From NCBI GenBank assembly GCA_035292425.1, contig DATDQD010000096.1, positions 1 to 40,547 of the forward strand: DNA of 40,547 nt, read 5' to 3'. The notes under the pieces are model-generated. The model searched no databases, was not told the origin of the DNA, and worked only from the letters and a program-made list of their open reading frames with translations. The translations under genes were made by a program, and so were the position numbers. Shown here one piece after another: positions 14,537 through 38,925 of the stretch (position 1 is its first letter; the number at the start of each line of letters is the position of its first letter). This DNA is from Bacteroidota bacterium (lineage in GTDB: Bacteria; Bacteroidota; Ignavibacteria; UBA10030; SZUA-254).

Positions 14537-14568
14537 AAAATCGTCTCCTCTGCCAATTTGGATGCGAT

Positions 14569-26583: not shown

Positions 26584-29037
26584 ATGCTAAAATCCACGCT
26601 CAAGAACATATTACCCTGGCTTTCTATCCGGAGTAAGCTCATCATTGCTTTCGTCGGACTTTCCATTGTTCCGCTTGCCCTGGTCGGTTTATACAGTATT
26701 TATTTGAATGTCCGGACAATGGAGAAAACCGCCCTTGAGAATCTCACGCACGATGTTCATACCATCCGGGAAAATACTGCAAATTTTCTTGGCAGCATCG
26801 AAAGCGACCTCAGGGTTCTGCGAAATTCGTCGCCGCTTGATCGTCTCATCACGGTCCTCGAGCGGAAATCCCCCGCCCAGACCAAAGTGATTCTCGACAA
26901 TCTCCAATCTGAAGTATTATCCTTTGCGCAAACGAAGCAGATTTATTACCAAATCAGAGTTGTGGACGATGACGGAGACGAACTGTTCCGTATCGAAACA
27001 GTGGACGTTACGGACACGGCATCGATCTACCGGATGGCTGGATCGACTGAGCTGCGGCATGCACGCGAATCATTTTATTTCCTCCTTATCGATCGTCTCA
27101 GAAAAGACCAAATTGCATTTGCACCGGGAGAGCTTGTGGATGACCAGAATCGAAGGATCCCGGTCATCAGTTTTGCGATGCCGCTTATCGGATCACGGAC
27201 CAGGGTCGGCACTCTCATCGCCAATGTATTTGCAAAAAATCTTTTCCGCGTCATCGAAGCAAACCGCCATCTCGAAGTCCAGGGAAAGATCGTTCTCGTA
27301 AACAGCGATGGCCATTATCTCTATCATTCCGAGAAGAAAAAGGACTGGAACAGACTCCTGGCATCACGCGAAGAAGATAATCTCCAGCATGATTACCCGG
27401 GTTCTACTGTTGCGGCGATTCTTTCAGGGAACGAGGGTACTGTCGCAGAAGGGGTCGATGAGATAGTCTCCTATGGTCCACTGTTCTCTACGACCGTTGG
27501 TGATAAAGTTACGCCCGGTTTTACGATGCCTTATTTCGCCTTTGAAAGTGTTCCCAAAGAATTTGTCCTGGGACCGGTACGTTCTTTCGCCTGGACATTT
27601 GCAAGTTTTCTCGGGGTGTTTCTCCTTCTGGCGATCGGGTTGGGATTGTTGGCGACCAGACAATTTACCAGACCTATCGCCGAGTTACACCATGGGGCTG
27701 CCATCATCTCGAATGGGAACTACGGCCAGCGACTTCGCGTGGATACACACGACGAAATCGAAAAACTTGCGGAGCAATTCAATGCCATGGCAGCGTCACT
27801 TGAATCGCATGAACATGAGATCCAGCATCACCGGACGAAGCTCGAAGAGATGGTGAGGAAGCGAACCTTCGAGTTGAATGAAGAGAAGACGAAACTCCAG
27901 GCGATACTCGATCATGTGCCAAGCGCCATCGTTTTATTGGATAAGGATTTTCGAATCCGGAGCGCCAGTGCCGCCTTCTCAACGATCACGGGACGTCGAT
28001 TCGAGGAAGTGGGCGGCAAGGACTGTGAGGCGGTGTTTTTCAATAACAGCTTTTGTCTGGAGTGTGTGTGCAGAAAGGCGATGGCGACCGGCAAGATCGA
28101 AGGCCATGTGGATCAGACGTATGATCATAAATTGGGTGAACGGTTCATTGAACACATTGCGATTCCGATGCATGACAATGGAGAGGTTGATTCTATCCTC
28201 GAGATCATCACCGATATCACAGAGCGCAAGAGATTCGAAAAAAACCTTCTCCAGGCCGAGCGGCTTGCGGCCGCAGGCGAGATGTCGGCAATTATTGCAC
28301 ACGAGTTCCGCAACTCGCTCACTTCGATCAAGATGATCCTGCAGCTTCATGCCGAGTCGAAGAATCTGAATCGCTCGGAGAGGAAGTCGCTCGACGTAGC
28401 GCTGGATTCAATCGACCAGATGGAGAACATCGTCGCAGAGTTGCTTAACTTTGCCCGTCCGAAGCCGATGGAGGTCCACGTCAAATCATTGAACACCATC
28501 GTTGTGGAGAGTTTGGCCTTCGCTCACCAACGGATATCGAAACAGAATATCTCCGTTAAGAAAATCCTGGATGCAGAGTTACCCCCATTCCCTCTCGACG
28601 AACCGTTGATGAAAGAATCGATCATGAACGTATTGATTAATGCCGCACACGCCATCGACAACGATGTTCGGAAGACGAACCTGGGAGTAATCCAAATCCT
28701 CACCAGGCGGGAATGTCTCCGAAAGACGCTGCGAGACTTTGGCATCGACAAAAGCTGGAGGAGGGACGCCTCAAATCCGGTAGGAGCGGAAATTATCCTG
28801 CCGAAAGGCACTGATTGTGCCGTAATTGAAATCCACGATAACGGCTCCGGCATCGAACGTCAATTTCTCCCTCGAATCTTTGATCCGTTCTTCACGACGA
28901 AAACCAACGGTACGGGACTCGGCCTGCCCATGGTGAAGCGGACCGTAAACGCCCACGGCGGGATCGTCGCGGTGAGCAGCACGGTACACAAAGGAACTAC
29001 GGTGAAGTTATATTTGCCCCTTCACCATGAAGCGTGA
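26584..29037 (+). CDS. Membrane sensor histidine kinase (large periplasmic Cache-like domain, HAMP, PAS, HisKA, HATPase_c)
   Basis: Two TM helices (residues ~19-40 and ~335-358) flank a ~295-aa extracytoplasmic domain. The HAMP region is RPIAELHHGAAIISNGNYGQRLRV...EIEKLAEQFNAM. The PAS domain carries a 4-Cys cluster. The H-box is IAHEFRNSLTSI, the N box NVLINAAHAI, and the G boxes are DNGSGI and TNGTGLGL. Confidence 0.9.
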   Translation: MLKSTLKNILPWLSIRSKLIIAFVGLSIVPLALVGLYSIYLNVRTMEKTALENLTHDVHTIRENTANFLGSIESDLRVLRNSSPLDRLITVLERKSPAQTKVILDNLQSEVLSFAQTKQIYYQIRVVDDDGDELFRIETVDVTDTASIYRMAGSTELRHARESFYFLLIDRLRKDQIAFAPGELVDDQNRRIPVISFAMPLIGSRTRVGTLIANVFAKNLFRVIEANRHLEVQGKIVLVNSDGHYLYHSEKKKDWNRLLASREEDNLQHDYPGSTVAAILSGNEGTVAEGVDEIVSYGPLFSTTVGDKVTPGFTMPYFAFESVPKEFVLGPVRSFAWTFASFLGVFLLLAIGLGLLATRQFTRPIAELHHGAAIISNGNYGQRLRVDTHDEIEKLAEQFNAMAASLESHEHEIQHHRTKLEEMVRKRTFELNEEKTKLQAILDHVPSAIVLLDKDFRIRSASAAFSTITGRRFEEVGGKDCEAVFFNNSFCLECVCRKAMATGKIEGHVDQTYDHKLGERFIEHIAIPMHDNGEVDSILEIITDITERKRFEKNLLQAERLAAAGEMSAIIAHEFRNSLTSIKMILQLHAESKNLNRSERKSLDVALDSIDQMENIVAELLNFARPKPMEVHVKSLNTIVVESLAFAHQRISKQNISVKKILDAELPPFPLDEPLMKESIMNVLINAAHAIDNDVRKTNLGVIQILTRRECLRKTLRDFGIDKSWRRDASNPVGAEIILPKGTDCAVIEIHDNGSGIERQFLPRIFDPFFTTKTNGTGLGLPMVKRTVNAHGGIVAVSSTVHKGTTVKLYLPLHHEA

Positions 29038-30442
29038 CGACAAGATCGGAGCCAGCGTCCTGGTCGTCGACGACGACGAGAAAATTCTCTTCGCCTTTCA
29101 GGAAGTACTGAGGAAAGACGGTCACAGGTGCATCGTGGCCAGGAACGGCGAAGAGGCGCTGGGTCAGCTGCTCAAGGAGTCTCCCGATCTGGTGTTCATG
29201 GATATTACGATGCCGAAGCTCGATGGCATCGAGACCCTGAAGCGGATCAAGCAGCACGGGAGTCTCCTTCCGGTGATCATTATCACCGGCTACGGAACGA
29301 TGCAGACGGCGATCAGGGCGGTGCAGAGCGGGGCGTTTGAGTATCTCACCAAGCCGCTGGATGTCGAGAAAATCCGGGAGGTGACAAACAGGGCGATTTA
29401 TGCTCTCAATACCAGAGCGGCGGGGTTGAAGGAAGTTGATGTATACAGGGCGGATGTCGTGGACCGATATGACCTTGTGGGTCGAAGCGACAAGATGCAG
29501 GAAGTCTACAAGCTGATCGGCTCCATCTCGACGACGCCAAATCATACGTCGGTCTTGATTACGGGTGAGAGCGGGACAGGGAAAGAGCTCGTGGCCAGAG
29601 CCATTCATGCCAACGGCACGAATTTCGATGAGCCTTTCATCGGCATCAATTGCACTACCTTGCCGGAATCGTTGCTGGAATCAGAACTGTTCGGATACGA
29701 AAAGGGGGCGTTTACCGGCGCAACCGACCGTAAACTGGGTAAATTCGAGTTTGCAGGGAAAGGTACCATTTTCCTCGACGAAATTATAAACCTCTCGCCC
29801 AACCTCCAACAAAAACTGCTTCGGGTACTCCAGGAGAGAGAATTCGAACGACTGGGCGGAAACACCGCCATACACGCAGAGGGTCGATTCATCGCCGCCA
29901 CGAATCGTGACATCGACCACGAAGTGAAAAAGGGATTTTTCAGGGAAGACCTGTTCTATCGACTGAATATTGTCACGATCCACCTTCCTCCTTTGCGCGA
30001 ACGGAAGGAGGACATACCGATGCTCGCAAGCTATTTCCTGATGAAGTACAACGGCCATCTGAAACGGTCGGTAAAGGGATTTTCGGACGACGCCATGAGC
30101 CTTCTCCTGTCCTACAGGTATCCGGGGAATGTCCGGGAGCTCGAAAATCTCATCGAACGCGCGGTGATGCTGACGAAGGGAGATGTCGTCCTCCCGGAAA
30201 TGATCGAAGATAAACTCGCAACGTCGGTGAAAGGATCCGACACACTTCCAATCATCAGCCCGCTGTTCAGCCAATCCCGCGAACATATCCTGATGCTGTT
30301 TGAAAAACAGTTCCTGATCGGGCAGCTGATAAAGCATCACGGCAACGTAACCGCCGCCGCGAAAGCATCCGGGATGACCAGACAGAATTATCAGCGACTG
30401 ATGAAGAAGTACGACCTCAGCGCAGATCCTTATCGAACGTAA
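29027..30442 (+). CDS. Sigma-54-dependent NtrC/Fis-family response regulator (REC - AAA+ - HTH)
   Basis: REC features are VLVVDDDE, DLVFMDITMP and KP. AAA+ features are Walker A GESGTGKE, the sigma-54 contact loop GAFTGA, and GTIFLDEI. A C-terminal Fis-type HTH is present (GNVTAAAKASGMTRQNYQRLMKKY). The gene overlaps the kinase gene by 11 nt. Confidence 0.92.
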   Translation: MKRDDKIGASVLVVDDDEKILFAFQEVLRKDGHRCIVARNGEEALGQLLKESPDLVFMDITMPKLDGIETLKRIKQHGSLLPVIIITGYGTMQTAIRAVQSGAFEYLTKPLDVEKIREVTNRAIYALNTRAAGLKEVDVYRADVVDRYDLVGRSDKMQEVYKLIGSISTTPNHTSVLITGESGTGKELVARAIHANGTNFDEPFIGINCTTLPESLLESELFGYEKGAFTGATDRKLGKFEFAGKGTIFLDEIINLSPNLQQKLLRVLQEREFERLGGNTAIHAEGRFIAATNRDIDHEVKKGFFREDLFYRLNIVTIHLPPLRERKEDIPMLASYFLMKYNGHLKRSVKGFSDDAMSLLLSYRYPGNVRELENLIERAVMLTKGDVVLPEMIEDKLATSVKGSDTLPIISPLFSQSREHILMLFEKQFLIGQLIKHHGNVTAAAKASGMTRQNYQRLMKKYDLSADPYRT

Positions 30443-30636: not shown

Positions 30637-30651
30637 TGGCACGGTCCTTGT
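30637..30651 (+). promoter_or_regulatory. Sigma-54 (-24/-12) promoter candidate
   Basis: TGGCACGgtccTTGT compared with the consensus TGGCACG-N4-TTGC(A/T). The spacing is exact and there is one mismatch in the -12 element (GT for GC). It lies 38 nt upstream of the ATG at 30689 and directly downstream of a sigma-54 activator gene. Confidence 0.5.
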
Positions 30652-30688: not shown

Positions 30689-31081
30689 ATGAGGAAACCG
30701 ACGGTTTTGGTCGTCGATGACGACGAGAATATTCTCTCCGCGTTCAACGATTTTCTGAAAAAAGAGCGCTGTGAGATGATCGCCGCCTCGAGTATGGATG
30801 AGGCAATGGGGATGCTTGAGCGGCGTCGCGTGGATGTTCTCATTGCCGACGTCAGGCTCAAGGCACAGTCGGGCGTCAAGCTCACCCTGGAGGTAAAACG
30901 CAGGCATCCCGGGATTTCAATCATTCTCATCACGGGATATCCGGAGCTCGTCAGCGAATGCGACGCTAAATCGTCCGGCGCGGATTATTTCTTCCTGAAA
31001 CCTCTGAACATTGACAAGCTCCGGGAAGCCGTGTCAATATGTTTGACGCATCGGAATACAGAACCTAAAATGCCGGTATAA
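30689..31081 (+). CDS. Stand-alone CheY-like receiver-domain protein
   Basis: It is 130 aa with the acidic pocket VVDDDE, the phospho-acceptor context VLIADVRL, the conserved T (ILITGY) and the conserved K (FLKPL). No output domain is present. Confidence 0.85.
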   Translation: MRKPTVLVVDDDENILSAFNDFLKKERCEMIAASSMDEAMGMLERRRVDVLIADVRLKAQSGVKLTLEVKRRHPGISIILITGYPELVSECDAKSSGADYFFLKPLNIDKLREAVSICLTHRNTEPKMPV

Positions 31082-31117: not shown

Positions 31118-32365
31118 ATGAAGACCTTTGTGATCTGCGTTCTGGCGGCCGCCTGCCTGCTCGTGCTCTTCGTCGAAGACGGATGGGGCATCCCATCGTT
31201 TTCGCGAAAGTACAAGACCAGCTGCAGCACCTGCCACTACGCCTTTCCGATGCTCAATGCATTCGGTAAAGCGTTTAAAAATAACGGCTACCGTTATCCC
31301 GGTGGCGATGAGAATTATCGGAAGGAAGAACCGGTCAGTCTTGGAGCGGAAGGCTACAAGAAAGTATGGCCTGATGCCGTCTGGCCGGGTGATATGCCCG
31401 GCACCTCGCCGCTCTCGGTGCTTGCAGTCGGCCGGATCAATTACAGCGCACTGAGCAGCGTGAAGTGGGAATTCGAATTCCCGCATGAACTCGAAGTGCT
31501 TTATGCCGGCACGATAGGGGAAGACTTTTCGTTTTTTGGCGAGGTTGAGGTCGAGAATGAAGGCAATGAAACGGAAATCGCGTTCCCGTTTGCGCTGCAA
31601 TTCGATCCCGACCCCGGTTTTCATGTGCGGGTAGGTATGGTCAATGCCGATCCGACGCCTACACATCTCCGGCTTACCAGGAATCATTACAACATGGCGA
31701 GTTTAAGAACCCGGAACGGATGGCGGTTCCGCGATGAACAGATCGGACTGGAAGTGTGGGGTGCCGCCAATGGCGCCGGGGACCGGGGCGGTTTCACCTA
31801 TCGGGCAGGTGTGGTCAACGGACAGGGGATCAGCGATTTGAACCCGCAAAAGGATGTCTATGGGAAACTGACCTATAAGATCGGAGGGTTGGGTGAGATT
31901 GGGGGTACGGAGGGCGCGGAGAGCGAGGCATCGGAATTTTACGTTGACAACTCGATAACCCTCGGCGGTTTTTTTTACAGGGGGATTGCATCAAAAGAGG
32001 GGGCAGACGATGAAGACTTTACGGTGTTTGGCGGCGATGTTGATCTCTGGTACGGCCGCTTCATCGCCAACGCTTCGGTGATGTCGATGAACTCCGACAT
32101 TCCGAATACCGCTGAGCGCAAATCACTGGTGTATTATGCCCAGGGTAACTATGTCCTTTATCCGTGGCTCATCGGTCTCGTGCGGTATGAGTGGGAGGAC
32201 AAAGACACCGACAATGATGCCGTCAAGCCCGTGAATGCAGTTATCCCCGGCGTGACGGTCGTCGCCCGGGCAAACGTAAAATTCATGCTGGAGTTTAAAA
32301 AGTTTCTGGACGACGTGAACGAGAATAACGATACTTTCGTCCTGCAAATGAATTTTGGCATCTAA
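31118..32365 (+). CDS. Cyc2-like fused monohaem cytochrome c - outer-membrane beta-barrel porin (candidate)
   Basis: A signal peptide (MKTFVICVLAAACLLVLFVEDGWG) is followed immediately by IPSFSRKYKTSCSTCHYAFPMLNAFGKAFKNNGYRYPG, which carries a single CXXCH. About 370 aa of alternating hydrophobic/polar beta-strand-like sequence follow (EFEFPHELEVLYAG, FSFFGEVEVENEG, EIAFPFALQFD, FMLEFKKF, FVLQMNFGI). The Cyc2 assignment comes from recalled family features and is not verified. Confidence 0.55.
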   Translation: MKTFVICVLAAACLLVLFVEDGWGIPSFSRKYKTSCSTCHYAFPMLNAFGKAFKNNGYRYPGGDENYRKEEPVSLGAEGYKKVWPDAVWPGDMPGTSPLSVLAVGRINYSALSSVKWEFEFPHELEVLYAGTIGEDFSFFGEVEVENEGNETEIAFPFALQFDPDPGFHVRVGMVNADPTPTHLRLTRNHYNMASLRTRNGWRFRDEQIGLEVWGAANGAGDRGGFTYRAGVVNGQGISDLNPQKDVYGKLTYKIGGLGEIGGTEGAESEASEFYVDNSITLGGFFYRGIASKEGADDEDFTVFGGDVDLWYGRFIANASVMSMNSDIPNTAERKSLVYYAQGNYVLYPWLIGLVRYEWEDKDTDNDAVKPVNAVIPGVTVVARANVKFMLEFKKFLDDVNENNDTFVLQMNFGI

Positions 32366-32462: not shown

Positions 32463-33056
32463 ATGAAACACGCGATCATCGCATTGCTCGGTTTCTCTGT
32501 TTGTCTGGTGTGCGGTGCGTACGCCGGAGACATCAAAGGCAAGGTTAAGGCCAAAGGAGCCAGACACGGCGGCGACGCCGTCGTCTACATCGACTCGATC
32601 CCGGGGAAGAAATTCGACCCCCCGAAGGAACACGCCAAGATGGACCAAAAAAACCTGACGTTCATACCGCACGTTCTTCCGATCCTCGCGGGAACGGCAG
32701 TGGACTATCTCAATAGCGACGACGTACTCCACAATGTCTTCACCCCCGAAAAATGCGCCGAAAAGTTCAACCTTGGTACGTGGCCCAAAGGGCAGGTGCG
32801 GTCTTATACTTTTAAAGAGCCCGGATGTATTCCCGTGATGCTGTGCAACGTCCATCCCGAGATGGAAGCGTATATCCTTGTTCTTGGAACACCGTACTAC
32901 GCGGTCAGCGCAAAGGATGGAAGCTATGCCCTGAAGGATATTCCTCCCGGAAAATACACCTTAAAGATCTGGCATGAAAAACTCAAGGGTGACGCGAAAG
33001 AAATCACGGTGCCTGAATCGGGAGAGATGGAGATGAATTTTGAGATAACGAAGTAA
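32463..33056 (+). CDS. Periplasmic cupredoxin-like (type-1 Cu candidate) protein with a C-terminal CarboxypepD_reg-like beta-sandwich
   Basis: A signal peptide is present. The cupredoxin_1-like pattern is LTFIPHVLPILAGTAVDYLNSDDVLHNVF ... MLCNVHPEMEAYILV, giving candidate ligands His/Cys/His/Met with amicyanin-like C-x2-H-x2-M spacing. The tail SAKDGSYALKDIPPGKYTLKIWHEKL is typical of the carboxypeptidase-regulatory-like fold. Confidence 0.6.
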   Translation: MKHAIIALLGFSVCLVCGAYAGDIKGKVKAKGARHGGDAVVYIDSIPGKKFDPPKEHAKMDQKNLTFIPHVLPILAGTAVDYLNSDDVLHNVFTPEKCAEKFNLGTWPKGQVRSYTFKEPGCIPVMLCNVHPEMEAYILVLGTPYYAVSAKDGSYALKDIPPGKYTLKIWHEKLKGDAKEITVPESGEMEMNFEITK

Positions 33057-33101: not shown

Positions 33102-35006
33102 ATGCACATGTCTGATCATGTGAAATTCGTCAACCTCGAATGGCTTGATTCAAATTTTCCCTGCATGGCTGCCTGCCCCGTTCATACGGAAGCGGGCCGG
33201 TATGTAGCGCTGATCGAAGAAGGTCGGTACCGGGAAGCATATCACGTCGCCCGGCGTCCAAATCCGTTTGCTTCGATCTGCGGACGCATCTGCGCGGCGC
33301 CGTGTGAGCCCGCATGCCGGCGCGGCAAGGCTGATCAACCCATTGCCATCCGTGCGCTGAAACGCTTTGTGTGTGAACGCTTCGGAGTCGAAAGCATGAT
33401 CGACCTCGAAAAATTGAAAGAGGTCTTCGGCAAAACGGTGAGGAAGAATGGTATTAAAGTCGCCGTCCTGGGCGCCGGACCCGCAGGACTTTCCTGCGCT
33501 CATGATCTCGCCCTGTTGGGCTATGAGGTAACGGTATTTGAAGCCCAGTCGGTTGCCGGAGGAATGTTGAGACTCGGTGTTCCGGAGTACCGCCTCCCCC
33601 GGGAACTGATCCGGCTTGAGGTCAACGGTATTCTCAGTCTCGGAGTCGAACTTAAACTGAACTCTGCCATCGGCCGGAATTTTACACTATCCGACCTCGA
33701 AGAGCAGGGCTATCGCGCCATCTTTATCGCAATCGGCGCTCACAAGAGCCGTGACCTGCGAATTGAAGGTGTCGAGCTTGACGGTGTCCTCCGGGCCGTC
33801 GACTTTCTCCTTAATGTGAACCTTGGCTACCGTGTCGAATTGGGGAACAAGGTCATCGTGATCGGCGGCGGCAATGTGGCGATCGATGTCGCCCGGACGG
33901 CTGCCCGGCAGGATACAATCGAGGTCGGTCATGTAACGGAAGTGGCCGAGGCGCTGGATGTTGCCCGCTCGGCTGTTCGCTTCGGCGCGAAGGAAGTGCA
34001 CATGGTTTGCCTCGAAGACTGGCGGGAGATGCCTTCTTCACGGGAGGAAATCACCGAAGCATTGGAAGAACGGATTCAGATCCATCCGCGCAAAGGTCCG
34101 GGCAAAATCATCGGACACAACGGCCGCGTTGTGGGATTTGAAACGATCGATTGTGTATCGGTCTTCGATGAACAGGGCCGCTTCAATCCGAAGTTCGCTC
34201 CGGGCACGGAGAAGTTCATGGAAGCCGATACGGTGATCATGGCGATCGGTCAGACATCCGACCTTTCATGGATTCGACCCGAAGATAAAATCGGGATCAC
34301 CCCACGGAACACCATCAAAGTCGATCCGCGCACCCTCGCCACTACAGCACCCGGCATCTTCGCGGGCGGCGATGTCTCGTTCGGTCCACGAAATGCCATC
34401 GATGCGGTCGCCAACGGAAAAAAAGCAGCTGAATCCATTCACCGGTATATCACGGGGAACGATGCTCAGCGAATCGCCCCGGAGTCCGGTGATCGTGATG
34501 TGGAAATCGTTGTCTACGACAAGGCACACTGTAACCGTGAGTGGGGCTATGAGAAGAAACACCGCATCCCCATTCCGTCACTGGCGATCGATCGGCGCAT
34601 CGGGGTTGCGCAGGTGGAGCTCGCGTACACCGAACACCAGGCCCGGGAGGAGGCGTCCCGCTGTCTCCACTGCTGGATCAATACTATTTTCGAGGCAGAG
34701 GGCGAGGGAACCGGAACGGAGTGCATTCTCTGCGGCGGATGTGTGGATATTTGCCCCGAGAACTGTATCGATCTCGTTGTGCTCGATCGGGTCGATGTTG
34801 ATCAATCGATGATCGTCGAACTTGAAAATGAATATGACGTCGTGCTTACAGGAGAAACCGAAACGTCGACGGGTTCGGTCATGATCAAAGATGAAGACAT
34901 TTGCATCCGTTGCGGACTCTGTGCGATGCGCTGTCCAGTCGGATGCATTACCATGGAAGGATACACCGTTTCGCTGACAAAACCCGAGGTAACGATTGGC
35001 CATTAG
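33102..35006 (+). CDS. GltD/NfnB-like NAD(P)H-dependent FAD oxidoreductase with an N-terminal FeS domain and a C-terminal 2x[4Fe-4S] ferredoxin domain
   Basis: Fer4_20-like Cys pattern (CMAACPVHTE...ICGRICAAPCEPACRRG). Two Rossmann motifs (VAVLGAGPAGLSCAHDLALLGYEVTVFE and VIVIGGGNVAIDVARTA) and AGGD are present. The C-terminal cluster motifs are CILCGGCVDICPENC and CIRCGLCAMRCPVGC. There is no signal peptide. The start may be the ATG at 33108 (GGGAGA Shine-Dalgarno). Confidence 0.85.
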   Translation: MHMSDHVKFVNLEWLDSNFPCMAACPVHTEAGRYVALIEEGRYREAYHVARRPNPFASICGRICAAPCEPACRRGKADQPIAIRALKRFVCERFGVESMIDLEKLKEVFGKTVRKNGIKVAVLGAGPAGLSCAHDLALLGYEVTVFEAQSVAGGMLRLGVPEYRLPRELIRLEVNGILSLGVELKLNSAIGRNFTLSDLEEQGYRAIFIAIGAHKSRDLRIEGVELDGVLRAVDFLLNVNLGYRVELGNKVIVIGGGNVAIDVARTAARQDTIEVGHVTEVAEALDVARSAVRFGAKEVHMVCLEDWREMPSSREEITEALEERIQIHPRKGPGKIIGHNGRVVGFETIDCVSVFDEQGRFNPKFAPGTEKFMEADTVIMAIGQTSDLSWIRPEDKIGITPRNTIKVDPRTLATTAPGIFAGGDVSFGPRNAIDAVANGKKAAESIHRYITGNDAQRIAPESGDRDVEIVVYDKAHCNREWGYEKKHRIPIPSLAIDRRIGVAQVELAYTEHQAREEASRCLHCWINTIFEAEGEGTGTECILCGGCVDICPENCIDLVVLDRVDVDQSMIVELENEYDVVLTGETETSTGSVMIKDEDICIRCGLCAMRCPVGCITMEGYTVSLTKPEVTIGH

Positions 35007-35012
35007 GAAGGA

Positions 35013-35510
35013 ATGATCATGAACGAAGAGCATGCCCGCGGAAAGCATACCACCGGACTTACCACGCGCCGCTATTTTCTCGAAGTCGTCGGGGGCGGCG
35101 CCATCGGCATTGCCGCCGCCGGCAGTGTTGTCCTGACCGCACAATTTCTCTCCCCCAATGTTTTGCTCGAACCTTCATTGAAATTCAAGGCCGGTTCTCC
35201 GGAGAATTATGCACCAGCATCCGTCACGTTGCTGAAAGAGCAGAAGGTCTTCATCGTCCGGGCACGAGAAGGCTATTTCTATGCTCTGTCCGCGATCTGC
35301 ACGCATCTCGGCTGTATTGCGAACTGGAAGCCGGAAGACGGCATCATCGCCTGTCCTTGTCACGGCAGCAAGTTCGGACAGGATGGAAAAGTTCTCGACG
35401 GGCCTGCGCCGGGACCATTGCCGAGGTTTTCCATGACCCTGGATGAACAGGGGCGACTGGTTATTGACAAAGGTGTCCCGGGAGGTGAAGAAGAAATTTT
35501 AAAGGTGTAA
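35013..35510 (+). CDS. Rieske [2Fe-2S] subunit with a Tat signal
   Basis: A twin-arginine leader ([21 protein letters not shown]) and cluster boxes CTHLGC and CPCHGSKF. The gene lies only 6 nt after the flavoprotein stop. The ATG at 35019 has better spacing from the AGGAAGGA Shine-Dalgarno. Confidence 0.9.
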
Positions 35511-35520
35511 GGGATTGACG

Positions 35521-36231
35521 ATGAAAAAAATGTTTGAACGGATCTTCCGAACCCAGGTGTGGCGCTCGATGTTCCGTCACGGTGTGCCGGACTCCAACCG
35601 CACACGCGCCGAAATGATATTCTATAATTTCTTCCTGCATGTCCACCCGACGAAGGTACGAAAGCGATCCGTGAGATTCGCCTACACGTGGGGACTCGGC
35701 GGAATATCAATGGGCTTGTTCATCGTTCTCACGCTCACCGGGGCGCTGCTGATGCTCTACTATCGTCCATCGGTACCGCAAGCGTATATGGACATGAAGG
35801 ACTTGGAATTCGTGGTTTCTTCCGGTCAATTCTTAAGGAACATGCACCGCTGGGCCGCGCATGCCATGGTAGCGGTTGTTTTTCTCCACATGCTTCGGGT
35901 CTTTTACACGGGTTCGTACCGCCCCCCGAAAGAATTCAATTGGGTCATCGGCGTTCTTCTTCTGGTCTCGACGATCCTCCTGAGCTACACCGGATACCTC
36001 TTACCGTGGGATCAACTATCGTTCTGGGGAATCTCCGTCGGAACCAACATGGTGAGAGCGATGCCGTTCGGGCTGGGGGAAAAGATTTCGTTTCTCCTGC
36101 TGGGCGGGAATGTCGTGGGTGAAAATGCGCTCGTAAGGTTTTACGTCCTGCACTGTTTCATCATCCCCCTGATAGCGGTGATACTGATGGGAATCCATTT
36201 TTGGAGAGTGCGGAAGGACGGCGGGGTATGA
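35521..36231 (+). CDS. Cytochrome b6-type (N-terminal, four-helix) cytochrome b subunit
   Basis: The helix B pair is H-x13-H ([15 protein letters not shown]) and the helix D pair is H-x14-H ([16 protein letters not shown]), which is the b6f/Bacillus-type spacing. [15 protein letters not shown] is also present. I chose the ATG at 35521 (AAGGG Shine-Dalgarno). The track ORF starts at TTG 35515. Confidence 0.88.
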
Positions 36232-36281
36232 CAGGATTATCACAAGCCGATCCCCGACGGTGGATCATCGAATGAGCGATC

Positions 36282-36980
36282 ATGGACAAAGATTTTACCA
36301 TCGACACGAGCCCCGACAGTAAAAAAACACCCAGGCGGATAGCGTTCGTCAAAAGTCGAACCGCAGCCCGGGTGAACATTGATGACGAAGAGATGGTGAT
36401 GACATTCCCCAATCTCGTCATCAAGGAGGTCATCGCCTTTCAAATCATGGTTATCATTCTTGCCGTCATATCGTTACTGGTGGATGCACCCCTGGAGTGG
36501 ATTGCAAATCCCGAACATACGCCGAACCCGGCAAAGGCACCATGGTATTTTCTCGGACTGCAGGAGCTGTTGCATTATTTCCCCCCCGTGGTAGGCGGTG
36601 TGATCCTCCCCGCGCTCGCAATCATCGCGTTGATCGTGATCCCATACTTTCGGATCAATATCAAACGCGAAGGTCTCTGGAAAAAACATAGGAAACGAAT
36701 GTTCATCGGCGTCATCGTAGTTGTTGGAATTTTATCGCTTGTCCTCGTCGCGTTCAAAGTGTTTTCCCTGCTGATCCCGACGCTGGCAGTTACCGCCATG
36801 ATGCTCATCCCGTATTTTTCCAGGAAAGAAGCCGGTCTCGTCGGCTGGCTTGGTTCCCGTCCCCTTTCATGGTGGATCATGACGTGGTTCATCATCATCG
36901 CCGTCGTTCTTACGACAATCGGTACACTGTTCCGGGGCCCGGAGTGGAGCTGGACGGTCCCCTGGGAAGGAATATATTGA
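36282..36980 (+). CDS. Cytochrome b C-terminal domain / subunit IV-like membrane protein (extended)
   Basis: NPAKAPWYFLGLQELLHYFPP matches the P(E/D)WY-type Qo-site motif of subunit IV / cytochrome b C-terminal domains. A ~50-aa hydrophilic N-terminal extension precedes about 5 hydrophobic helices. Confidence 0.8.
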   Translation: MDKDFTIDTSPDSKKTPRRIAFVKSRTAARVNIDDEEMVMTFPNLVIKEVIAFQIMVIILAVISLLVDAPLEWIANPEHTPNPAKAPWYFLGLQELLHYFPPVVGGVILPALAIIALIVIPYFRINIKREGLWKKHRKRMFIGVIVVVGILSLVLVAFKVFSLLIPTLAVTAMMLIPYFSRKEAGLVGWLGSRPLSWWIMTWFIIIAVVLTTIGTLFRGPEWSWTVPWEGIY

Positions 36981-36981
36981 G

Positions 36982-38925
36982 GTGCCGGGCCTTATGAAAT
37001 ATTTTGCGGCTTCGAGTCTGACGTTTCTGATCGTCCTTGCCATTGTGCCGGTCAAAGATTATTTCCGTGAGTGGAAGCGGTATCAATACGAATACAACGA
37101 TCTCATCAAGACGCTGCCGCAGCGCGTCAAACCGGCAGACATCGGCATCAAACAGCTCTGGGTGAGAAACCTTGAGAAAATTGATCGCTGCGTCACTTGT
37201 CACCTCGGTTTAAAGGAGGAAGCCCTGCGCGCATCACGTCAACCGTTCCGGACGCACCCCCACATCTACCACGACATTGAAGAGTTCGGCTGCACGATTT
37301 GTCACGAGGGTCAGGGTCTCTCGACGACATTCAAAGAATCCGTCGGCAGAGTGAAGTACTGGGACAGGCCCATCTTTCCACGCGAATTCATGGAGGCCTC
37401 ATGCGCCAAGTGTCATAAAGAAAAGCGGGTCCCACAAGCACCGATCCTCACGTCGGGTCGAAAGCTCATTGAAGAGTCCAACTGTGCGGGCTGCCACACG
37501 ATCGACGGTTACCCTAAACATTGGATTCCCGCTCTTGACGGTATAGGATCGAAGGTGAACCGGACCTGGCTGGTGAATTGGCTGAAGAACCCGAAAGCGT
37601 ATTTCGCCGGGACGAAAATGCCAAATTTCATGTTGTCGAATGAGGAATCAAATCTCCTGGCCGACTTTCTGATGACATTCACCAAATTTCCCGGGGGGGT
37701 TGTATTACATCCAGTCCCGATTCAACTGGCGGTTTCGACTGATGCAGAGAGAGAGAAGTCGATCGATCTCGGCTCGACACGATTTCGGGAAGCCCGCTGT
37801 ATCAGTTGTCATCCTGTTAACGGGAAAGGAGGATCCGGGGCGACCGATCTTGGTAAGGTCGCCGATAAGGTCGACATGAAATGGCTGTTTAATTATGTTC
37901 AGAGCCCCAAACGGCTTCAGCCGGGCGTCGAAATGCCGAGATACCGTTTTAACGAAAATGAGCTTGCCGGAGTTGTCGCCTACATGCAGAGTGAGTTCAC
38001 GGAAGGGGAAACAGGGGAAAATACGTCTTACGCGCGCGACCCGGCATTTTATGAAAAAGGTCTTGCATTGTACAAGAAATACAACTGCAGCGGATGCCAC
38101 CAACTCGGGGGGATGCTGAAAGCGGAAGAGATGGCGCCGGAACTCACCTTTGTCGGCGACAAGAAAATCTACGAGATTGATTTCGGCGAGTCGACAATCG
38201 GGCAATCGCTTCCCGCGTATCTCTTCACAAAACTCAAAGCCCCCCGTTCTTTCTCGTCCTCCATGAAGATGCCCAGCTATGAATTCAGCGACGAGGAGGC
38301 GCAGGCTGTCACAACGGCCTTACTCGGCAACATCAGTGACCAGTTACCCGGGGAATTCATCGTCCGTCCGGCTCAGGTCAGATCCTACCAACCTCAGGGA
38401 GAATTTGGCAAGTTGGTGGATGATCTGGCGTGTTTTGGATGTCACACGATGTTCGGGCGGGGCAGATTGATCGCAACCGATCTGACACTCGAAGCGAGCC
38501 AGGCTCAGAGAAAATGGATAGAAGATTACTTCAAAGTGCCGTATTCACTCCGACCGGTCTTGACTGATAGGATGCCGAACTTGTTCCTGTCGGAGTCAGA
38601 AATCAGGGTGCTGGTCGACTATATGGAACAGGTATTCCTTGCAGATAGCCTGGAGCGTCACATCGAGATCGATGAGACCAAAATCGCAAAAGGGGAAATC
38701 CTGTATTTCGAAAAGTACGGCTGTCATGCATGTCACCAGCTCAGACAGAAAGGCGGATATGTCGGCCCCCCCCTGGACAAGATCGGTTCCAGACTGAAAC
38801 CAAATTGGATTTTCCACTGGCTGAAAAACCCCCGGGCCTTTAAGCCGGAATCGATCGAGCCCGACAATCATTTATCGGATGAAGAGGCTGAGGCGCTAAC
38901 GGCGTTTCTCATGACGGTTCAGTGA
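36982..38925 (+). CDS. Membrane-anchored octahaem c-type cytochrome (3 closely spaced haems plus 5 class-I-like cytochrome c modules)
   Basis: Eight CXXCH motifs: CVTCH, CTICH, CAKCH, CAGCH, CISCH, CSGCH, CFGCH and CHACH. An N-terminal TM helix is present (YFAASSLTFLIVLAIVPV). Five repeated modules follow the pattern CxxCH...L..(I/V)G.K......W......P........MP...L...E...L..(F/Y)(L/M). The GTG start lies 1 nt after the previous stop. An alternative ATG is at 36994. Confidence 0.85.
   Translation: MPGLMKYFAASSLTFLIVLAIVPVKDYFREWKRYQYEYNDLIKTLPQRVKPADIGIKQLWVRNLEKIDRCVTCHLGLKEEALRASRQPFRTHPHIYHDIEEFGCTICHEGQGLSTTFKESVGRVKYWDRPIFPREFMEASCAKCHKEKRVPQAPILTSGRKLIEESNCAGCHTIDGYPKHWIPALDGIGSKVNRTWLVNWLKNPKAYFAGTKMPNFMLSNEESNLLADFLMTFTKFPGGVVLHPVPIQLAVSTDAEREKSIDLGSTRFREARCISCHPVNGKGGSGATDLGKVADKVDMKWLFNYVQSPKRLQPGVEMPRYRFNENELAGVVAYMQSEFTEGETGENTSYARDPAFYEKGLALYKKYNCSGCHQLGGMLKAEEMAPELTFVGDKKIYEIDFGESTIGQSLPAYLFTKLKAPRSFSSSMKMPSYEFSDEEAQAVTTALLGNISDQLPGEFIVRPAQVRSYQPQGEFGKLVDDLACFGCHTMFGRGRLIATDLTLEASQAQRKWIEDYFKVPYSLRPVLTDRMPNLFLSESEIRVLVDYMEQVFLADSLERHIEIDETKIAKGEILYFEKYGCHACHQLRQKGGYVGPPLDKIGSRLKPNWIFHWLKNPRAFKPESIEPDNHLSDEEAEALTAFLMTVQ

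What the first reader, a model, noticed from the sequence alone, without database searches (positions are those of the whole stretch)
31118..32365. Candidate Cyc2-type fused cytochrome-porin
Seen in sequence: a cleavable signal peptide is followed within about 12 residues by the only CXXCH in the protein (SFSRKYKTSCSTCHYAFPMLNAFGKAFKNNGYRYPG). About 370 residues follow with the amphipathic alternating pattern and Gly/aromatic-rich turns of an outer-membrane beta-barrel. Established knowledge: Cyc2 iron oxidases (Acidithiobacillus, Zetaproteobacteria, Gallionellaceae, some Chlorobi) are 400-500-aa proteins with exactly this layout. The adjacent cupredoxin and cytochromes fit a periplasmic acceptor chain. 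Inference: this is an outer-membrane electron entry or exit point for the operon.
Basis: partly seen in the sequence, partly recalled or inferred. Interest (0 to 1): 0.7.

Follow-up and report, generated by a model that had tools for sequence, protein, structure and literature searches.

The report
Cyc2-like haem-porin heading a redox operon
This gene encodes an outer-membrane pore with a single haem fused to it, of the kind iron-oxidising bacteria use to move electrons across the outer membrane. In many uncultured bacterial phyla it sits in one conserved operon with a copper protein and an unusual NAD(P)-linked respiratory complex.

Summary
ORF 31118-32365(+) encodes a 415-aa protein with a signal peptide and one invariant CXXCH 12 residues into the mature chain. 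AlphaFold predicts a confident 16-strand porin-fold barrel.

It carries a one-residue variant (GxPxFSRKY-x3-CxxCH-x3-PxL) of the published Cyc2 signature. Profile searches link it full-length, through a superfamily of 3,524 clusters, to proteobacterial Cyc2-type proteins.

The new result is the context.
- In 69 of 72 related loci, from about ten phyla, the gene is followed by a type-1 copper cupredoxin.
- In 41 of 52 loci a Rieske/cytochrome b complex with an octahaem cytochrome follows; 40 of those also carry a cytoplasmic NfnB/GltD-like NAD(P) oxidoreductase. Its closest known relatives are the anammox NAD(P)H-generating complexes.
- In 6 of 52 loci an ACIII/Qrc-like module takes that place.
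- A conserved sigma-54 promoter and two-component system lie upstream.

The protein is best read as the outer-membrane end of an electron path to the quinone/NAD(P) pools. Iron(II) uptake is the most likely direction, but direction is unresolved. I rate it a new variant of a known kind, with moderately high interest.

The parts
26584..29037 (+). Sensor histidine kinase (dCache, HAMP, PAS, HisKA, HATPase), first gene of the conserved regulatory pair
   Evidence: Pfam domains. The regulatory pair is collinear upstream of the Cyc2-like gene in most related loci; its NtrC partner was counted in 50 of 67 loci with enough upstream sequence.
29027..30442 (+). NtrC-type sigma-54-dependent response regulator (REC, AAA+ sigma-54 interaction domain, HTH_8)
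   Evidence: Pfam Sigma54_activat E=1.7e-65. Found upstream of the Cyc2-like gene in 50 of 67 loci that have enough upstream sequence.
30637..30651 (+). Sigma-54 (-24/-12) promoter-like site, TGGCAC-GGTCC-TTGT, 37 nt upstream of the REC start codon
   Evidence: Found; on its own it is not above chance across the window. A site with at most one mismatch occurs in the same intergenic region in 29 of 52 orthologous loci, against 3.6% of random segments of the same length.
30689..31081 (+). Single-domain response-regulator receiver protein, first gene after the sigma-54 promoter
   Evidence: Pfam Response_reg E=3.5e-22. Present in the Ignavibacteria-type loci.
31118..32365 (+). Cyc2-like fused monohaem cytochrome c and 16-strand porin, 415 aa (the finding)
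31118..31189 (+). Signal peptide, residues 1-24
   Evidence: Sequence features and the ortholog alignment showing an AxA|IP cleavage context. It is the least conserved region, with a majority fraction of 0.34.
31187..31255 (+). Cytochrome signature G24-I-P-S-F-S-R-K-Y-(KTS)-C36-S-T-C-H40-(YAF)-P44-M-L46
   Evidence: The published Cyc2 motif is AXPXFAR[Q/K][T/Y] followed by CXXCH and then PXL (PMC8406198). The motif census and 3-residue spacing are, and the same spacing is seen in the Ralstonia protein.
31412..32362 (+). Beta-barrel, residues 99-415: 16 strands, with a long internal-loop candidate at residues 176-207 between strands 5 and 6
   Evidence: AlphaFold2 secondary structure and pLDDT. 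Foldseek matches 16-strand porins: PorB, OmpF, Omp32 and OprP 2O4V. The Ralstonia Cyc2-type control model has the same topology.
32463..33056 (+). Secreted type-1 copper cupredoxin domain (ligands H90, C128, H131, M134; amicyanin-like C-x2-H-x2-M loop) fused to a C-terminal CarboxypepD_reg-type beta-sandwich
   Evidence: The ligands are invariant in 23 orthologs. Profile against PDB: NirK cupredoxin domain 1e-8, blue copper protein 5FC9 2.5e-7, amicyanins about 2e-5. It lies immediately downstream in 69 of 72 loci.
33102..35006 (+). Cytoplasmic NfnB/GltD-type FAD and NAD(P)-binding iron-sulfur flavoprotein with an extra C-terminal 2x[4Fe-4S] domain
   Evidence: Pfam Fer4_20, Pyr_redox_2 and Fer4_7. 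It has no signal peptide or TM segment, a GxGxxG motif and two CxxCxxCxxxC motifs. The best PDB match is NfnABC 9BOV/9BP5, E=3.4e-89; 9BP5 is the entry reported as the structural homolog of the anammox NAD(P) reductase subunit.
35013..35510 (+). Rieske [2Fe-2S] subunit with an RR-containing N-terminal anchor
   Evidence: Pfam Rieske and a CTH...CPCH motif. The best PDB hits are the Kuenenia Rieske proteins 9RK4 (3e-25) and 9RK3 (4e-22), ahead of b6f Rieske proteins at about 1e-15.
35515..36231 (+). b6-type (split) cytochrome b
   Evidence: Pfam Cytochrome_B 3e-43. The nearest NCBIfam model is ExtP at 274 bits, below its 290-bit cut-off.
36282..36980 (+). Subunit-IV-like (PetD/ExtQ-like) membrane subunit
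   Evidence: Pfam Cytochrom_B_C and NCBIfam ExtQ, below cut-off.
36982..38925 (+). Membrane-anchored octahaem c-type cytochrome (8 CXXCH)
   Evidence: Collinear in related loci.
38926..39441 (+). Monohaem c-type cytochrome, last gene of the operon
   Evidence: Its start codon directly follows the preceding stop codon.

Best explanation
The gene encodes a Cyc2-superfamily protein: a Sec-exported monohaem c-type cytochrome of about 40-70 residues fused to a 16-stranded porin-fold outer-membrane barrel. It is the outer-membrane end of a conserved, sigma-54-controlled electron-transfer operon.

Proposed path; each step is inferred from homology and synteny, and none is shown biochemically:
1. A dissolved extracellular reductant, most likely Fe2+, enters the pore and gives one electron to the haem, as proposed for Cyc2.
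2. The haem passes the electron to the periplasmic type-1 copper cupredoxin encoded next door, which plays the role rusticyanin plays in Acidithiobacillus.
3. The cupredoxin delivers it to the monohaem and octahaem c-type cytochromes of an inner-membrane Rieske/cytochrome b complex.
4. That complex connects the high-potential periplasmic chain to the menaquinone pool and, through its cytoplasmic iron-sulfur flavoprotein, to NAD(P)(H).

The upstream dCache/PAS kinase and NtrC-type activator switch the operon on from a -24/-12 promoter.

My confidence by sub-claim: identity as a Cyc2-type cytochrome-porin, about 0.9. Role as the outer-membrane terminus of this chain, about 0.8. Inward direction (Fe(II) or electron uptake), about 0.5; this is the number given below.
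For: Anatomy:
- Signal peptide, single CXXCH, and no cysteines in the mature protein outside the motif.
- Motif P-x-F-[SA]-R-K-Y-x3-CxxCH-x3-P-x-L with the same spacing as the Ralstonia Cyc2-type protein, matching the published Cyc2 signature (PMC8406198).
- The cytochrome domain is more conserved than the barrel, 0.85 against 0.66, as published for Cyc2.

Fold:
- AlphaFold barrel with 16 strands.
- Foldseek top hits are 16-strand porins, including OprP 2O4V, the template used for Cyc2.
- A control model of a Ralstonia Cyc2-type protein shows the same 16 strands and the same long loop between strands 5 and 6.

Homology:
- hhalign of the window family against proteobacterial Cyc2-type proteins gives 98% probability, E about 1e-12, over the cytochrome domain.
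- Through the wider superfamily the match is full-length: E=3e-128, then 99.6% probability with E=1.2e-24 over 366 columns.

Coupling to partners:
- Cupredoxin downstream in 69 of 72 loci.
- Rieske/cytochrome b complex in 41 of 52 loci, 40 of them with the flavoprotein.
- ACIII/Qrc-like quinone-interacting module in 6 of 52 loci.
- Genes are separated by 0-97 nt.
- Conserved sigma-54 promoter in 29 of 52 loci against 3.6% background.

Direction:
- All biochemically characterised Cyc2 proteins are Fe(II) oxidases, and Cyc2 from strain PV-1 has a midpoint potential of +208 mV.
- Cupredoxins feature in electron-uptake systems, and rusticyanin does so in Acidithiobacillus (established knowledge).
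- ACIII and bc1 are the proposed uphill routes in neutrophilic iron oxidisers.
- FeGenie-based surveys report Cyc2 genes in Ignavibacteriales and Zixibacteria MAGs.
Against: - No experiment exists on any member of this clade.
- FeGenie HMMs and characterised Cyc2 sequences (A. ferrooxidans, Leptospirillum, strain PV-1) could not be obtained. The link to 'true' Cyc2 therefore rests on the published motif definition and on Ralstonia/Burkholderia-type homologs, genera that Keffer et al. say carry Cyc2 homologs.
- The window protein has Ser for Ala in the FAR motif and Gly for the leading Ala, so it would fail the literal published filter.
- The haem domain is modelled at low confidence, so whether it plugs the barrel is unknown.
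- No conserved distal haem ligand was identified.
- Direction is not constrained by the data. The host lineages are mostly known as organoheterotrophs and Fe(III) reducers. The closest analogue of the inner-membrane complex is proposed to send electrons outward, from quinol to a high-potential acceptor, while making NAD(P)H. The operon encodes no terminal oxidase.
Confidence: 0.5

Rival explanations
1. The hardware is the same but runs outward. The Rieske/cytochrome b complex oxidises menaquinol and splits the two electrons. One electron goes uphill through the b haems, iron-sulfur clusters and FAD to NAD(P)+. The other goes downhill through Rieske, octahaem c, monohaem c, cupredoxin and the Cyc2-like protein to a high-potential extracellular acceptor such as chelated Fe(III), Mn(III/IV) oxides or oxidised humics. 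On this reading the cytochrome-porin is an electron exit.
For: The inner-membrane complex has the architecture of the Kuenenia Kustd1480-85 and Kuste4569-74 complexes, and its Rieske subunit is closest to theirs in the PDB. Those complexes are proposed to work this way and need a high-potential sink. The operon encodes no other exit for the high-potential electron. Cyc2 homologs occur in Fe(III)-reducing taxa, including Ignavibacteriaceae. The Geobacter ext cluster pairs a porin-like outer-membrane protein with a Rieske/cytochrome b module and is up-regulated on Fe(III) oxide.
Against: No Cyc2-family protein has been shown to reduce an extracellular acceptor. At about +200 mV for Cyc2, and typically higher for cupredoxins, reduction of common ferric oxides (about 0 mV) would be uphill, so only high-potential acceptors would work. 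I know of no outward extracellular electron transfer pathway that uses a cupredoxin (my own knowledge, not tested here).
Confidence: 0.3
2. It is a redox-active cytochrome-porin whose physiological substrate is not iron. Candidates are Mn(II), reduced humic or quinone compounds, a sulfur or arsenic species, or a partner cell or electrode. Alternatively it acts mainly as a periplasm-facing redox sensor or gated channel for the operon.
For: The barrel diverges strongly while the cytochrome domain is almost invariant: 33-38% identity against 55-86% for the neighbouring genes. Some loci carry two copies. Both points are compatible with substrate or surface diversification. Cyc2 homologs are widespread in organisms not known to oxidise iron. 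A Cyc2-type protein has been discussed for Mn(II) oxidisers (PMC9040806 was listed but not read).
Against: The only demonstrated activity in the family is Fe(II) oxidation. The relatives come from iron-rich groundwater, deep-mine and fen MAGs. Nothing in the operon points to another substrate.
Confidence: 0.15
3. It is an ordinary haem-free diffusion porin of the OmpF/OprP type with an incidental CXXCH, unrelated to the neighbouring genes.
For: The Foldseek hits are all ordinary porins, and no Pfam or NCBIfam cytochrome-porin family matches.
Against: The CXXCH and its flanks are the most conserved part of the protein and are invariant across hundreds of homologs. The motif is the published Cyc2 signature. 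No porin sequence family matches either. Synteny with redox partners is near-universal.
Confidence: 0.02

Closest known systems
Cyc2 fused cytochrome-porins (A. ferrooxidans Cyc2, Leptospirillum Cyt572, Mariprofundus Cyc2 from strain PV-1; Keffer et al. 2021, McAllister et al. 2020)
   Same: Signal peptide, a single N-terminal CXXCH inside the PxF[A/S]R[K/Q][Y/T]-x3-CxxCH-x3-PxL signature, a length of 400-500 aa, and a predicted 16-strand OprP-like barrel. The cytochrome domain is far better conserved than the barrel. Profile homology reaches proteobacterial Cyc2-type proteins.
   Different: It belongs to a large clade from the FCB group and allied phyla that is only distantly related; a direct profile alignment covers the cytochrome domain only. 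Its motif is FSRKY rather than FAR[QK][TY]. Placement in Cyc2 clusters 1-3 is untested. The gene context differs: there is no adjacent Cyc1-type dihaem cytochrome or cytochrome oxidase. Instead there is a cupredoxin and an NAD(P)-oxidoreductase-bearing Rieske/cytochrome b complex under sigma-54 control.
Acidithiobacillus ferrooxidans rus and petI systems (Cyc2, rusticyanin, c4 cytochromes, then aa3 oxidase downhill or bc1 uphill)
   Same: The logic is the same: an outer-membrane Cyc2, then a periplasmic cupredoxin, then c-type cytochromes, then a Rieske/cytochrome b complex that leads to the quinone and NAD(P) pools.
   Different: Here all parts lie in one operon. The cupredoxin has an amicyanin-like loop and is fused to a beta-sandwich domain, and it is not a rusticyanin homolog by any test done here. 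The b-type complex is b6-like with an octahaem cytochrome and its own NAD(P) oxidoreductase. The hosts live at neutral pH and are mostly heterotrophic lineages.
Anammox Rieske/cytochrome b complexes Kustd1480-85 and Kuste4569-74 (Kartal et al. 2013; Hauser et al. 2025)
   Same: A b6-type cytochrome b, a SUIV-like subunit, a multihaem c in place of cytochrome f, and a cytoplasmic NfnB-like FAD/iron-sulfur NAD(P) oxidoreductase. The window's Rieske subunit has these two proteins as its best PDB matches.
   Different: The operon is coupled to an outer-membrane cytochrome-porin and a cupredoxin rather than to an HAO-like octahaem enzyme or nitrite. It is found in Ignavibacteria, Calditrichota, Zixibacteria, Eisenbacteria, Acidobacteriota and others, not in an anammoxosome. 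The Rieske potential is unknown.
Geobacter sulfurreducens extHIJKLMNOPQS cluster
   Same: An outer-membrane, phosphate-porin-like protein and c-type cytochromes are clustered with a Rieske, cytochrome b, membrane-subunit and cytochrome c module. ExtP, ExtQ and ExtS are the nearest NCBIfam models for the window's subunits.
   Different: ExtI has no fused haem. There is no cupredoxin and no flavoprotein. The scores fall below the NCBIfam cut-offs (ExtP 274 bits against 290).
Porin-cytochrome complexes MtrCAB, MtoAB and PioAB
   Same: They carry electrons across the outer membrane using a beta-barrel plus c-type haem.
   Different: Those are 26-strand barrels that sheathe a separate decahaem protein. 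This is a 16-strand barrel with one covalently fused monohaem domain.

Membership tests
Cyc2 (criteria of Keffer et al. 2021, PMC8406198) | N-terminal signal peptide | tested here: met
   Residues 1-24 comprise MK, a hydrophobic core, and G at positions -3 and -1. Orthologs show AxA|IP. No dedicated signal-peptide predictor was available.
Cyc2 (criteria of Keffer et al. 2021, PMC8406198) | Single CXXCH haem-binding motif near the N-terminus | tested here: met
   The one CXXCH is at residues 36-40. It is invariant in the family.
Cyc2 (criteria of Keffer et al. 2021, PMC8406198) | Literal upstream motif (A)XPXFAR[Q/K][T/Y] | tested here: not met
   The window protein reads G-I-P-S-F-S-R-K-Y. P, F, R, K and Y match with the same 3-residue spacing to the Cys as in the Ralstonia protein, but Ser replaces the Ala of FAR and Gly replaces the leading Ala. 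In its subfamily 70 of 117 members have FSRKY and 32 of 117 have FARKY. In the wider superfamily 100 of 136 pass the literal motif. This is a conservative drift within a homologous motif, but the literal filter would exclude this protein.
Cyc2 (criteria of Keffer et al. 2021, PMC8406198) | PXL motif with the Pro four residues after the CXXCH | tested here: met
   H40-Y-A-F-P44-M-L46. P44 and L46 are invariant.
Cyc2 (criteria of Keffer et al. 2021, PMC8406198) | Length of at least 365 aa | tested here: met
   415 aa.
Cyc2 (criteria of Keffer et al. 2021, PMC8406198) | C-terminal 16-strand porin with structural similarity to OprO/OprP | tested here: met
   AlphaFold gives 17 DSSP elements, which is 16 strands if 151-155 and 158-165 form one kinked strand. 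Foldseek matches PorB, OmpF and Omp32, plus OprP 2O4V at E=1e-8 with TM-score 0.54. The Ralstonia Cyc2-type control model has 16 strands and the same long loop between strands 5 and 6.
Cyc2 (criteria of Keffer et al. 2021, PMC8406198) | Sequence homology to accepted Cyc2 proteins, FeGenie HMM score, and placement in cluster 1, 2 or 3 | tested here: inconclusive
As a surrogate, hhalign against Ralstonia/Burkholderia-type proteins gave 98% probability over the cytochrome domain directly, and a full-length match through the superfamily profile at 99.6% probability, E=1.2e-24, over 366 columns. Keffer et al. name those genera as carrying Cyc2 homologs. Cluster assignment was not possible.
Cyc2 (criteria of Keffer et al. 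2021, PMC8406198) | Covalent haem, outer-membrane location and Fe(II) oxidase activity | not testable with these tools
   This needs expression, a haem stain, fractionation and Fe(II) oxidation kinetics.
Haem-free general or phosphate porins (OmpF, OprP) | 16-strand barrel with no redox cofactor; sequence match to porin families | tested here: not met
   The fold matches, but no porin Pfam or PDB sequence match was found, and a conserved haem-binding domain is fused to the barrel.
MtrB/PioB-type porin-cytochrome complexes | Barrel of about 26 strands with a separate periplasmic decahaem partner | tested here: not met
   The barrel has 16 strands, the haem is fused, and no MtrA-like decahaem gene lies adjacent.
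Anammox-type NAD(P)-oxidoreductase-bearing Rieske/cytochrome b complex (downstream genes 33102-39441) | Split b6-type cytochrome b with a SUIV-like subunit, a multihaem c instead of cytochrome f, and a cytoplasmic FAD/iron-sulfur NAD(P) oxidoreductase subunit | tested here: met
   Pfam and NCBIfam domain content. There are eight CXXCH motifs, and the flavoprotein has no signal peptide or TM segment. The Rieske subunit's best PDB hits are 9RK4 and 9RK3 from Kuenenia. The flavoprotein's best PDB hit is NfnABC 9BOV/9BP5.
Anammox-type NAD(P)-oxidoreductase-bearing Rieske/cytochrome b complex (downstream genes 33102-39441) | High-potential Rieske cluster (above +300 mV) and physical assembly of the flavoprotein with the membrane complex | not testable with these tools
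   This needs electrochemistry and purification, or modelling of the complex with cofactors.
Geobacter Ext (ExtOPQS) module | Scores above the NCBIfam equivalog cut-offs | tested here: not met
   ExtP 273.8 bits against a cut-off of 290; ExtQ 60 against 150; ExtS 93 against 100. These are the nearest curated models, but the proteins are not members.

The most novel reading that the evidence does not exclude
The operon is a self-contained converter between extracellular electrons and NAD(P)H. It would be an anammox-type, electron-bifurcating or confurcating Rieske/cytochrome b complex whose high-potential branch is wired, through a dedicated cupredoxin and a Cyc2-like cytochrome-porin, to the outside of the cell.

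Running one way, it would let organisms make NAD(P)H from quinol by dumping the second electron on an extracellular oxidant. Running the other way, it would merge Fe(II)-derived and NAD(P)H-derived electrons into the menaquinone pool. That could explain why many nitrate-dependent Fe(II) oxidisers need an organic co-substrate.

If true, it would be the first such NAD(P)-linked Rieske/cytochrome b complex recognised outside anammox bacteria, spread over roughly ten phyla. It would also supply the missing high-potential partner reaction for this class of complex.
Probability: 0.3. Interest if true: 0.85.

Novelty: new variant of a known kind. Interest (0 to 1): 0.6.

Why it matters
Cyc2 is the main marker gene for microbial iron oxidation. 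What happens to its electrons in the periplasm, and how they reach NAD(P)H, is still hypothetical in neutrophiles.

Here the Cyc2-like gene sits in one tight, widely conserved operon with a specific periplasmic carrier (a cupredoxin) and a specific inner-membrane complex that has its own NAD(P) oxidoreductase. That turns the question into a defined set of 8-9 proteins that can be expressed, modelled and measured.

It also extends the enigmatic anammox-type NAD(P)-linked Rieske/cytochrome b complexes to abundant subsurface and sediment lineages: Ignavibacteria, Calditrichota, Zixibacteria, Eisenbacteria, Latescibacterota and Acidobacteriota.

It carries a practical warning as well. In these lineages a Cyc2 hit cannot yet be read as 'iron oxidiser', because the direction of flow is open.

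Tried and rejected
- Pfam and NCBIfam scans of the protein gave nothing above threshold. The only hits were Cytochrom_C at E=0.25 and a spurious HflK match.
- PDB sequence searches found nothing relevant, whether with the single sequence or with the 93-sequence profile, which returned only chance equinatoxin hits.
- I tried three ways to obtain authentic Cyc2 sequences. The Keffer supplements hold identity tables and logos but no sequences. A full-text search for the peptide 'FARQT' returned OCR noise. The listing of cluster members on ten bridging superfamily members returned no names or organisms. FeGenie scoring and cluster placement therefore could not be done.
- The DeMMO FeGenie supplement tabulates calls per site and per MAG, not per gene. 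It could not show that the 80%-identical ortholog in L001 is the gene called Cyc2.
- The look-up of encoding contigs with the exact window protein found nothing. The nearest record (P0001, 414 of 415 identical) is an ENA assembly with no environment information.
- The TTTACAC...GTGTAAA palindrome at 30491-30542 looked like an enhancer-binding site, but it is not conserved: at least two half-sites occur in only 3 of 52 loci. I dropped it.
- The four-Cys motif in the kinase PAS region (28024-28071) looked like a possible redox or metal sensor, but all four Cys are present in only 5 of 41 orthologs. I dropped it.
- The sigma-54 pattern alone is not above chance across the window. It is retained only because of its position and its conservation in orthologs.
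- The idea that this is an incidental CXXCH in a plain porin was rejected on the conservation evidence.
Full report
OBSERVATION

The ORF at 31118-32365(+) is real and encodes 415 aa with the quoted N-terminus. Residues 1-24 look like a Sec signal peptide. The single CXXCH (C36-H40, nt 31223-31237) begins at residue 12 of the predicted mature protein, and its two cysteines are the only ones in the mature chain.

Curated libraries do not recognise the protein. Pfam gives only a sub-threshold Cytochrom_C match (E=0.25), NCBIfam gives nothing meaningful, and PDB sequence searches are empty.

FAMILY AND CONSERVATION

A word-indexed search found 636 homologs, all 'hypothetical'. The closest (70-99% identity) are in Ignavibacteria and Ignavibacteriales MAGs. 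More distant ones (about 50-60%) are in Calditrichaeota, Latescibacteria and Eisenbacteria.

An exhaustive profile search against 1.84 billion cluster representatives found 3,524 representatives at E<=1e-3 and 327 at E<=1e-30.

In alignments of 19 and 93 sequences, the CXXCH and its flanks are invariant or nearly so: P26, R30, Y32, T34, C36, C39, P44, L46, G50, N56, G57. Conservation is highest in the cytochrome domain (0.85) and linker (0.80), lower in the barrel strands (0.66), and lowest in the signal peptide (0.34). The CXXCH is therefore the core of the protein, not a chance motif.

COMPARISON WITH THE PUBLISHED DEFINITION OF CYC2

Keffer et al. 2021 (PMC8406198) define Cyc2 by these features:
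- a signal peptide
- one CXXCH
- an AXPXFAR[Q/K][T/Y] motif upstream, described as unique to Cyc2
- PXL with the Pro four residues downstream
- a length of at least 365 aa
- a 16-strand porin structurally like OprO/OprP

They also report that the cytochrome part is much better conserved than the porin.

The window protein reads G-I-P-S-F-S-R-K-Y-KTS-CSTCH-YAF-PML. Every element and the spacing match, except Ser for the Ala of FAR and Gly for the first Ala.

In its own subfamily, 70 of 117 members have FSRKY, 32 have FARKY and 7 have WARKY. In the wider superfamily, 100 of 136 representatives carry the literal PxFAR[QK][TY]. A strict regular-expression filter would therefore drop this protein while keeping many of its orthologs.

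FOLD

AlphaFold2 on the 93-sequence alignment (pLDDT 81, pTM 0.79) gives a confident barrel from residue 99 to 415. There are 17 DSSP strand elements, which is 16 strands if 151-155 and 158-165 form one kinked strand. A 32-residue loop lies between strands 5 and 6, the position of the constriction loop L3 in classical porins. The haem domain is modelled at low confidence, as expected without the cofactor.

Foldseek against the PDB returns 226 hits at E<=1e-3. The top hits listed are all 16-strand porins: PorB, OmpF, Omp32, OmpU and also OprP 2O4V, the template used for Cyc2.

As a control I modelled a named proteobacterial Cyc2-type protein (Ralstonia 'cytochrome C', P0272). It has 16 strands and the same long loop between strands 5 and 6.

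HOMOLOGY TO CYC2-TYPE PROTEINS

FeGenie HMMs and characterised Cyc2 sequences were not obtainable.

A tblastn search of plasmids and megaplasmids recovered Ralstonia, Caballeronia and Methylocystis proteins. They carry the canonical AVPAFARQTGxxCxxCHxxFPEL motif and are followed by c-type cytochrome genes. Keffer et al. name Ralstonia and Burkholderia among the genera that carry Cyc2 homologs.

The profile comparisons gave:
- Window family against these proteins: 98% probability, E=2.8e-13, but over the signal peptide and cytochrome domain only.
- With deeper alignments built locally, window family (W) against wider superfamily (R): full length, E=3e-128.
- R against 116 proteobacterial Cyc2-type proteins (B): 99.6% probability, E=1.2e-24, over 366 columns that include the barrel.
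- W against B directly: still only the cytochrome domain.

I conclude that the protein belongs to a large, divergent clade of the Cyc2 superfamily centred on the FCB group. Assignment to Cyc2 clusters 1-3 remains untested.

Literature supports the general picture. Cyc2-like genes have been reported in Ignavibacteriaceae MAGs. FeGenie finds iron-oxidation genes, mostly Cyc2, in Ignavibacteriales and Zixibacteria MAGs at the DeMMO site, which is also the source of the 80%-identical ortholog in L001.

CONTEXT IN THE WINDOW

All genes lie on the + strand, separated by 0-97 nt:
- a dCache/HAMP/PAS histidine kinase
- an NtrC-type sigma-54 activator
- a single REC protein
- the Cyc2-like gene
- a 197-aa secreted protein
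- a 634-aa GltD/NfnB-like FAD and NAD(P) iron-sulfur flavoprotein, with no signal peptide or TM segment
- a Rieske protein
- a b6-type cytochrome b
- a subunit-IV-like protein
- a membrane-anchored octahaem cytochrome c
- a monohaem cytochrome c

The 197-aa protein is a genuine type-1 copper cupredoxin fused to a beta-sandwich. H90, C128, H131 and M134 (an amicyanin-like C-x2-H-x2-M loop) are invariant in 23 orthologs. The ortholog profile hits NirK cupredoxin domains (1e-8), a blue copper protein (2.5e-7) and amicyanins (2e-5).

SYNTENY

A scan of one genome per GTDB species found 161 relatives, and 80 loci were fetched. All are MAGs, labelled as Ignavibacteria/Bacteroidota, Calditrichota, Zixibacteria, Latescibacterota, Eisenbacteria, Fidelibacterota, Acidobacteriota, Deferrimicrobium and Brocadiales, among other labels.
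- The cupredoxin follows the Cyc2-like gene in 69 of 72 loci with enough sequence.
- A Rieske/cytochrome b complex follows in 41 of 52 loci, and 40 of those include the flavoprotein.
- In 6 of 52 loci it is replaced by a module of multihaem c, a molybdopterin-like protein, a 4Fe-4S protein, NrfD and cytochrome c. This is the ACIII/Qrc type.
- 5 of 52 loci have neither.
- The NtrC-type gene is upstream in 50 of 67 loci.

The constant elements are therefore the cytochrome-porin, the cupredoxin and a quinone-interacting membrane complex with periplasmic c-type cytochromes. That is what one expects of a conduit between the cell surface and the quinone pool.

A -24/-12 site (TGGCAC-N5-TTGT, 30637-30651) lies 37 nt upstream of the REC gene. 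Similar sites with at most one mismatch occur in the same intergenic region in 29 of 52 loci, against 3.6% of random segments. The operon is thus very probably under the control of the adjacent sigma-54 activator.

THE INNER-MEMBRANE COMPLEX

Its architecture matches the unusual Kuenenia stuttgartiensis complexes Kustd1480-85 and Kuste4569-74. Those have a b6-like cytochrome b, a SUIV-like subunit, a hexa- or octahaem c, and a cytoplasmic NAD(P) oxidoreductase with an iron-sulfur chain. They are proposed to bifurcate quinol electrons to NAD(P)+ and to a high-potential acceptor, and their Rieske potentials are above +300 mV (PMC12954380).

The window's Rieske protein has those two Kuenenia Rieske structures (9RK4 and 9RK3) as its best PDB matches, at 3e-25 and 4e-22, ahead of b6f Rieske proteins at about 1e-15. 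The flavoprotein's best PDB match is NfnABC 9BOV/9BP5 (3e-89). 9BP5 is the entry Hauser et al. found as the structural homolog of the anammox reductase subunit.

The nearest curated NCBIfam models for the b-type subunits are ExtP, ExtQ and ExtS from the Geobacter ext cluster, all below cut-off. That cluster also pairs a porin-like outer-membrane protein with a Rieske/cytochrome b module.

MECHANISM AND DIRECTION

Shown computationally: the domain organisation, conservation, fold, homology, operon structure, and the conserved promoter and partners.

Inferred: haem attachment, outer-membrane insertion, and electron transfer from haem to cupredoxin to cytochromes c to the Rieske/cytochrome b complex and on to MK and NAD(P).

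I favour electron uptake from dissolved Fe(II), at about 0.5, for four reasons:
- Every characterised Cyc2 is an Fe(II) oxidase, and Cyc2 from strain PV-1 has a midpoint potential of +208 mV.
- Cupredoxins are typical of uptake and oxidation chains (and established knowledge of rusticyanin).
- ACIII and bc1 are the proposed uphill routes in neutrophilic iron oxidisers.
- The relatives come from iron-rich subsurface sites.

The outward model, at about 0.3, is a serious rival. It is how the closest analogue of the inner-membrane complex is thought to work, the operon offers no other sink for the high-potential electron, and the host lineages are better known as heterotrophs and Fe(III) reducers. 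A non-iron substrate (about 0.15) cannot be excluded.

NOVELTY

A Cyc2-like gene in Ignavibacteria is not new in itself. Four full-text searches found no paper describing the operon, that is, Cyc2-like gene, cupredoxin and NAD(P)-oxidoreductase-bearing Rieske/cytochrome b complex under sigma-54 control, conserved across many phyla. That library is incomplete, so this is absence of evidence only.

I rate it a new variant of a known kind, with interest 0.6.

Noticed in passing
L049-L051, L055, L057, L062, L064, L069, L073, L076, L078 (Cyc2-like gene at about 10001-11280 in each): In these loci the neighbouring genes are 55-86% identical to the window's, but the Cyc2-like protein is only 33-38% identical. 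Its cytochrome domain is almost unchanged (IPAFARKYKTSCATCH..FPKLNAFG) while its barrel has diverged strongly. Two barrel subtypes therefore occupy the same operon slot, which suggests fast surface evolution or substrate diversification.
   Followed up: partly
L065 6053-8557; L024 1-1164 and 10049-11221; L054 10001-11206 and 18505-19755; L017 1374-2498(-) and 10058-11245: Some genomes carry two Cyc2-like genes in or next to the cluster. They are in tandem in L065. In L024 and L054 the second copy has its own cupredoxin.
   Followed up: no
L001 12142-19790; L025 12053-18615 (also L026, L037, L041, L063, L044): In variant clusters the Rieske/cytochrome b complex and flavoprotein are replaced by a module of multihaem c, a molybdopterin-like protein, a 4Fe-4S protein, NrfD and cytochrome c (ACIII/Qrc-like). 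This module lies directly after the Cyc2-like gene and cupredoxin.
   Followed up: partly
window 30491-30542: A TTTACAC-N8-GTGTAAA palindrome plus an extra TTTACAC half-site lies about 100-150 nt upstream of the sigma-54 promoter, laid out like an enhancer-binding site. At least two half-sites occur in only 3 of 52 orthologous loci: the window, L030 (Zixibacteria) and L037.
   Followed up: yes
window 28024-28071 (kinase residues 481-496): The PAS region of the sensor kinase carries a four-Cys motif, C-x9-C-x2-C-x-C (CEAVFFNNSFCLECVC), which suggests a metal or redox cofactor. All four Cys are present in only 5 of 41 orthologs.
   Followed up: yes
window 19631-25279 (+): A giant 1,882-aa ORF with a right-handed beta-helix and an Ig-like domain, probably a surface protein, lies in a stretch of clearly higher G+C (0.60-0.64, against 0.49-0.54 in flanking regions). 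A second high-GC stretch lies at about 4-10 kb. Long antisense ORFs in this region have no family matches and are probably artefacts of the high G+C.
   Followed up: partly
window 12638-14572 (-) and 14569-16764 (-): Two secreted proteins end in a type IX secretion (Por_Secre_tail) sorting domain. This fits a Bacteroidota or Ignavibacteria origin for the window.
   Followed up: no
window 39536-39742 (-): A short ORF with a helix-turn-helix-like sequence (…RRLTVDEAATTLGLGTRQLYRL…) lies just after the operon and resembles the N-terminus of a transposase or regulator. The last roughly 1.1 kb of the window has no convincing gene.
   Followed up: no
L074 1103-2413 (Brocadiales MAG): A Cyc2-like homolog (35% identity) occurs in an anammox-order MAG, the lineage in which the NAD(P)-linked Rieske/cytochrome b complexes were first described. 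The contig is only 3.1 kb, so its context is unknown.
   Followed up: no
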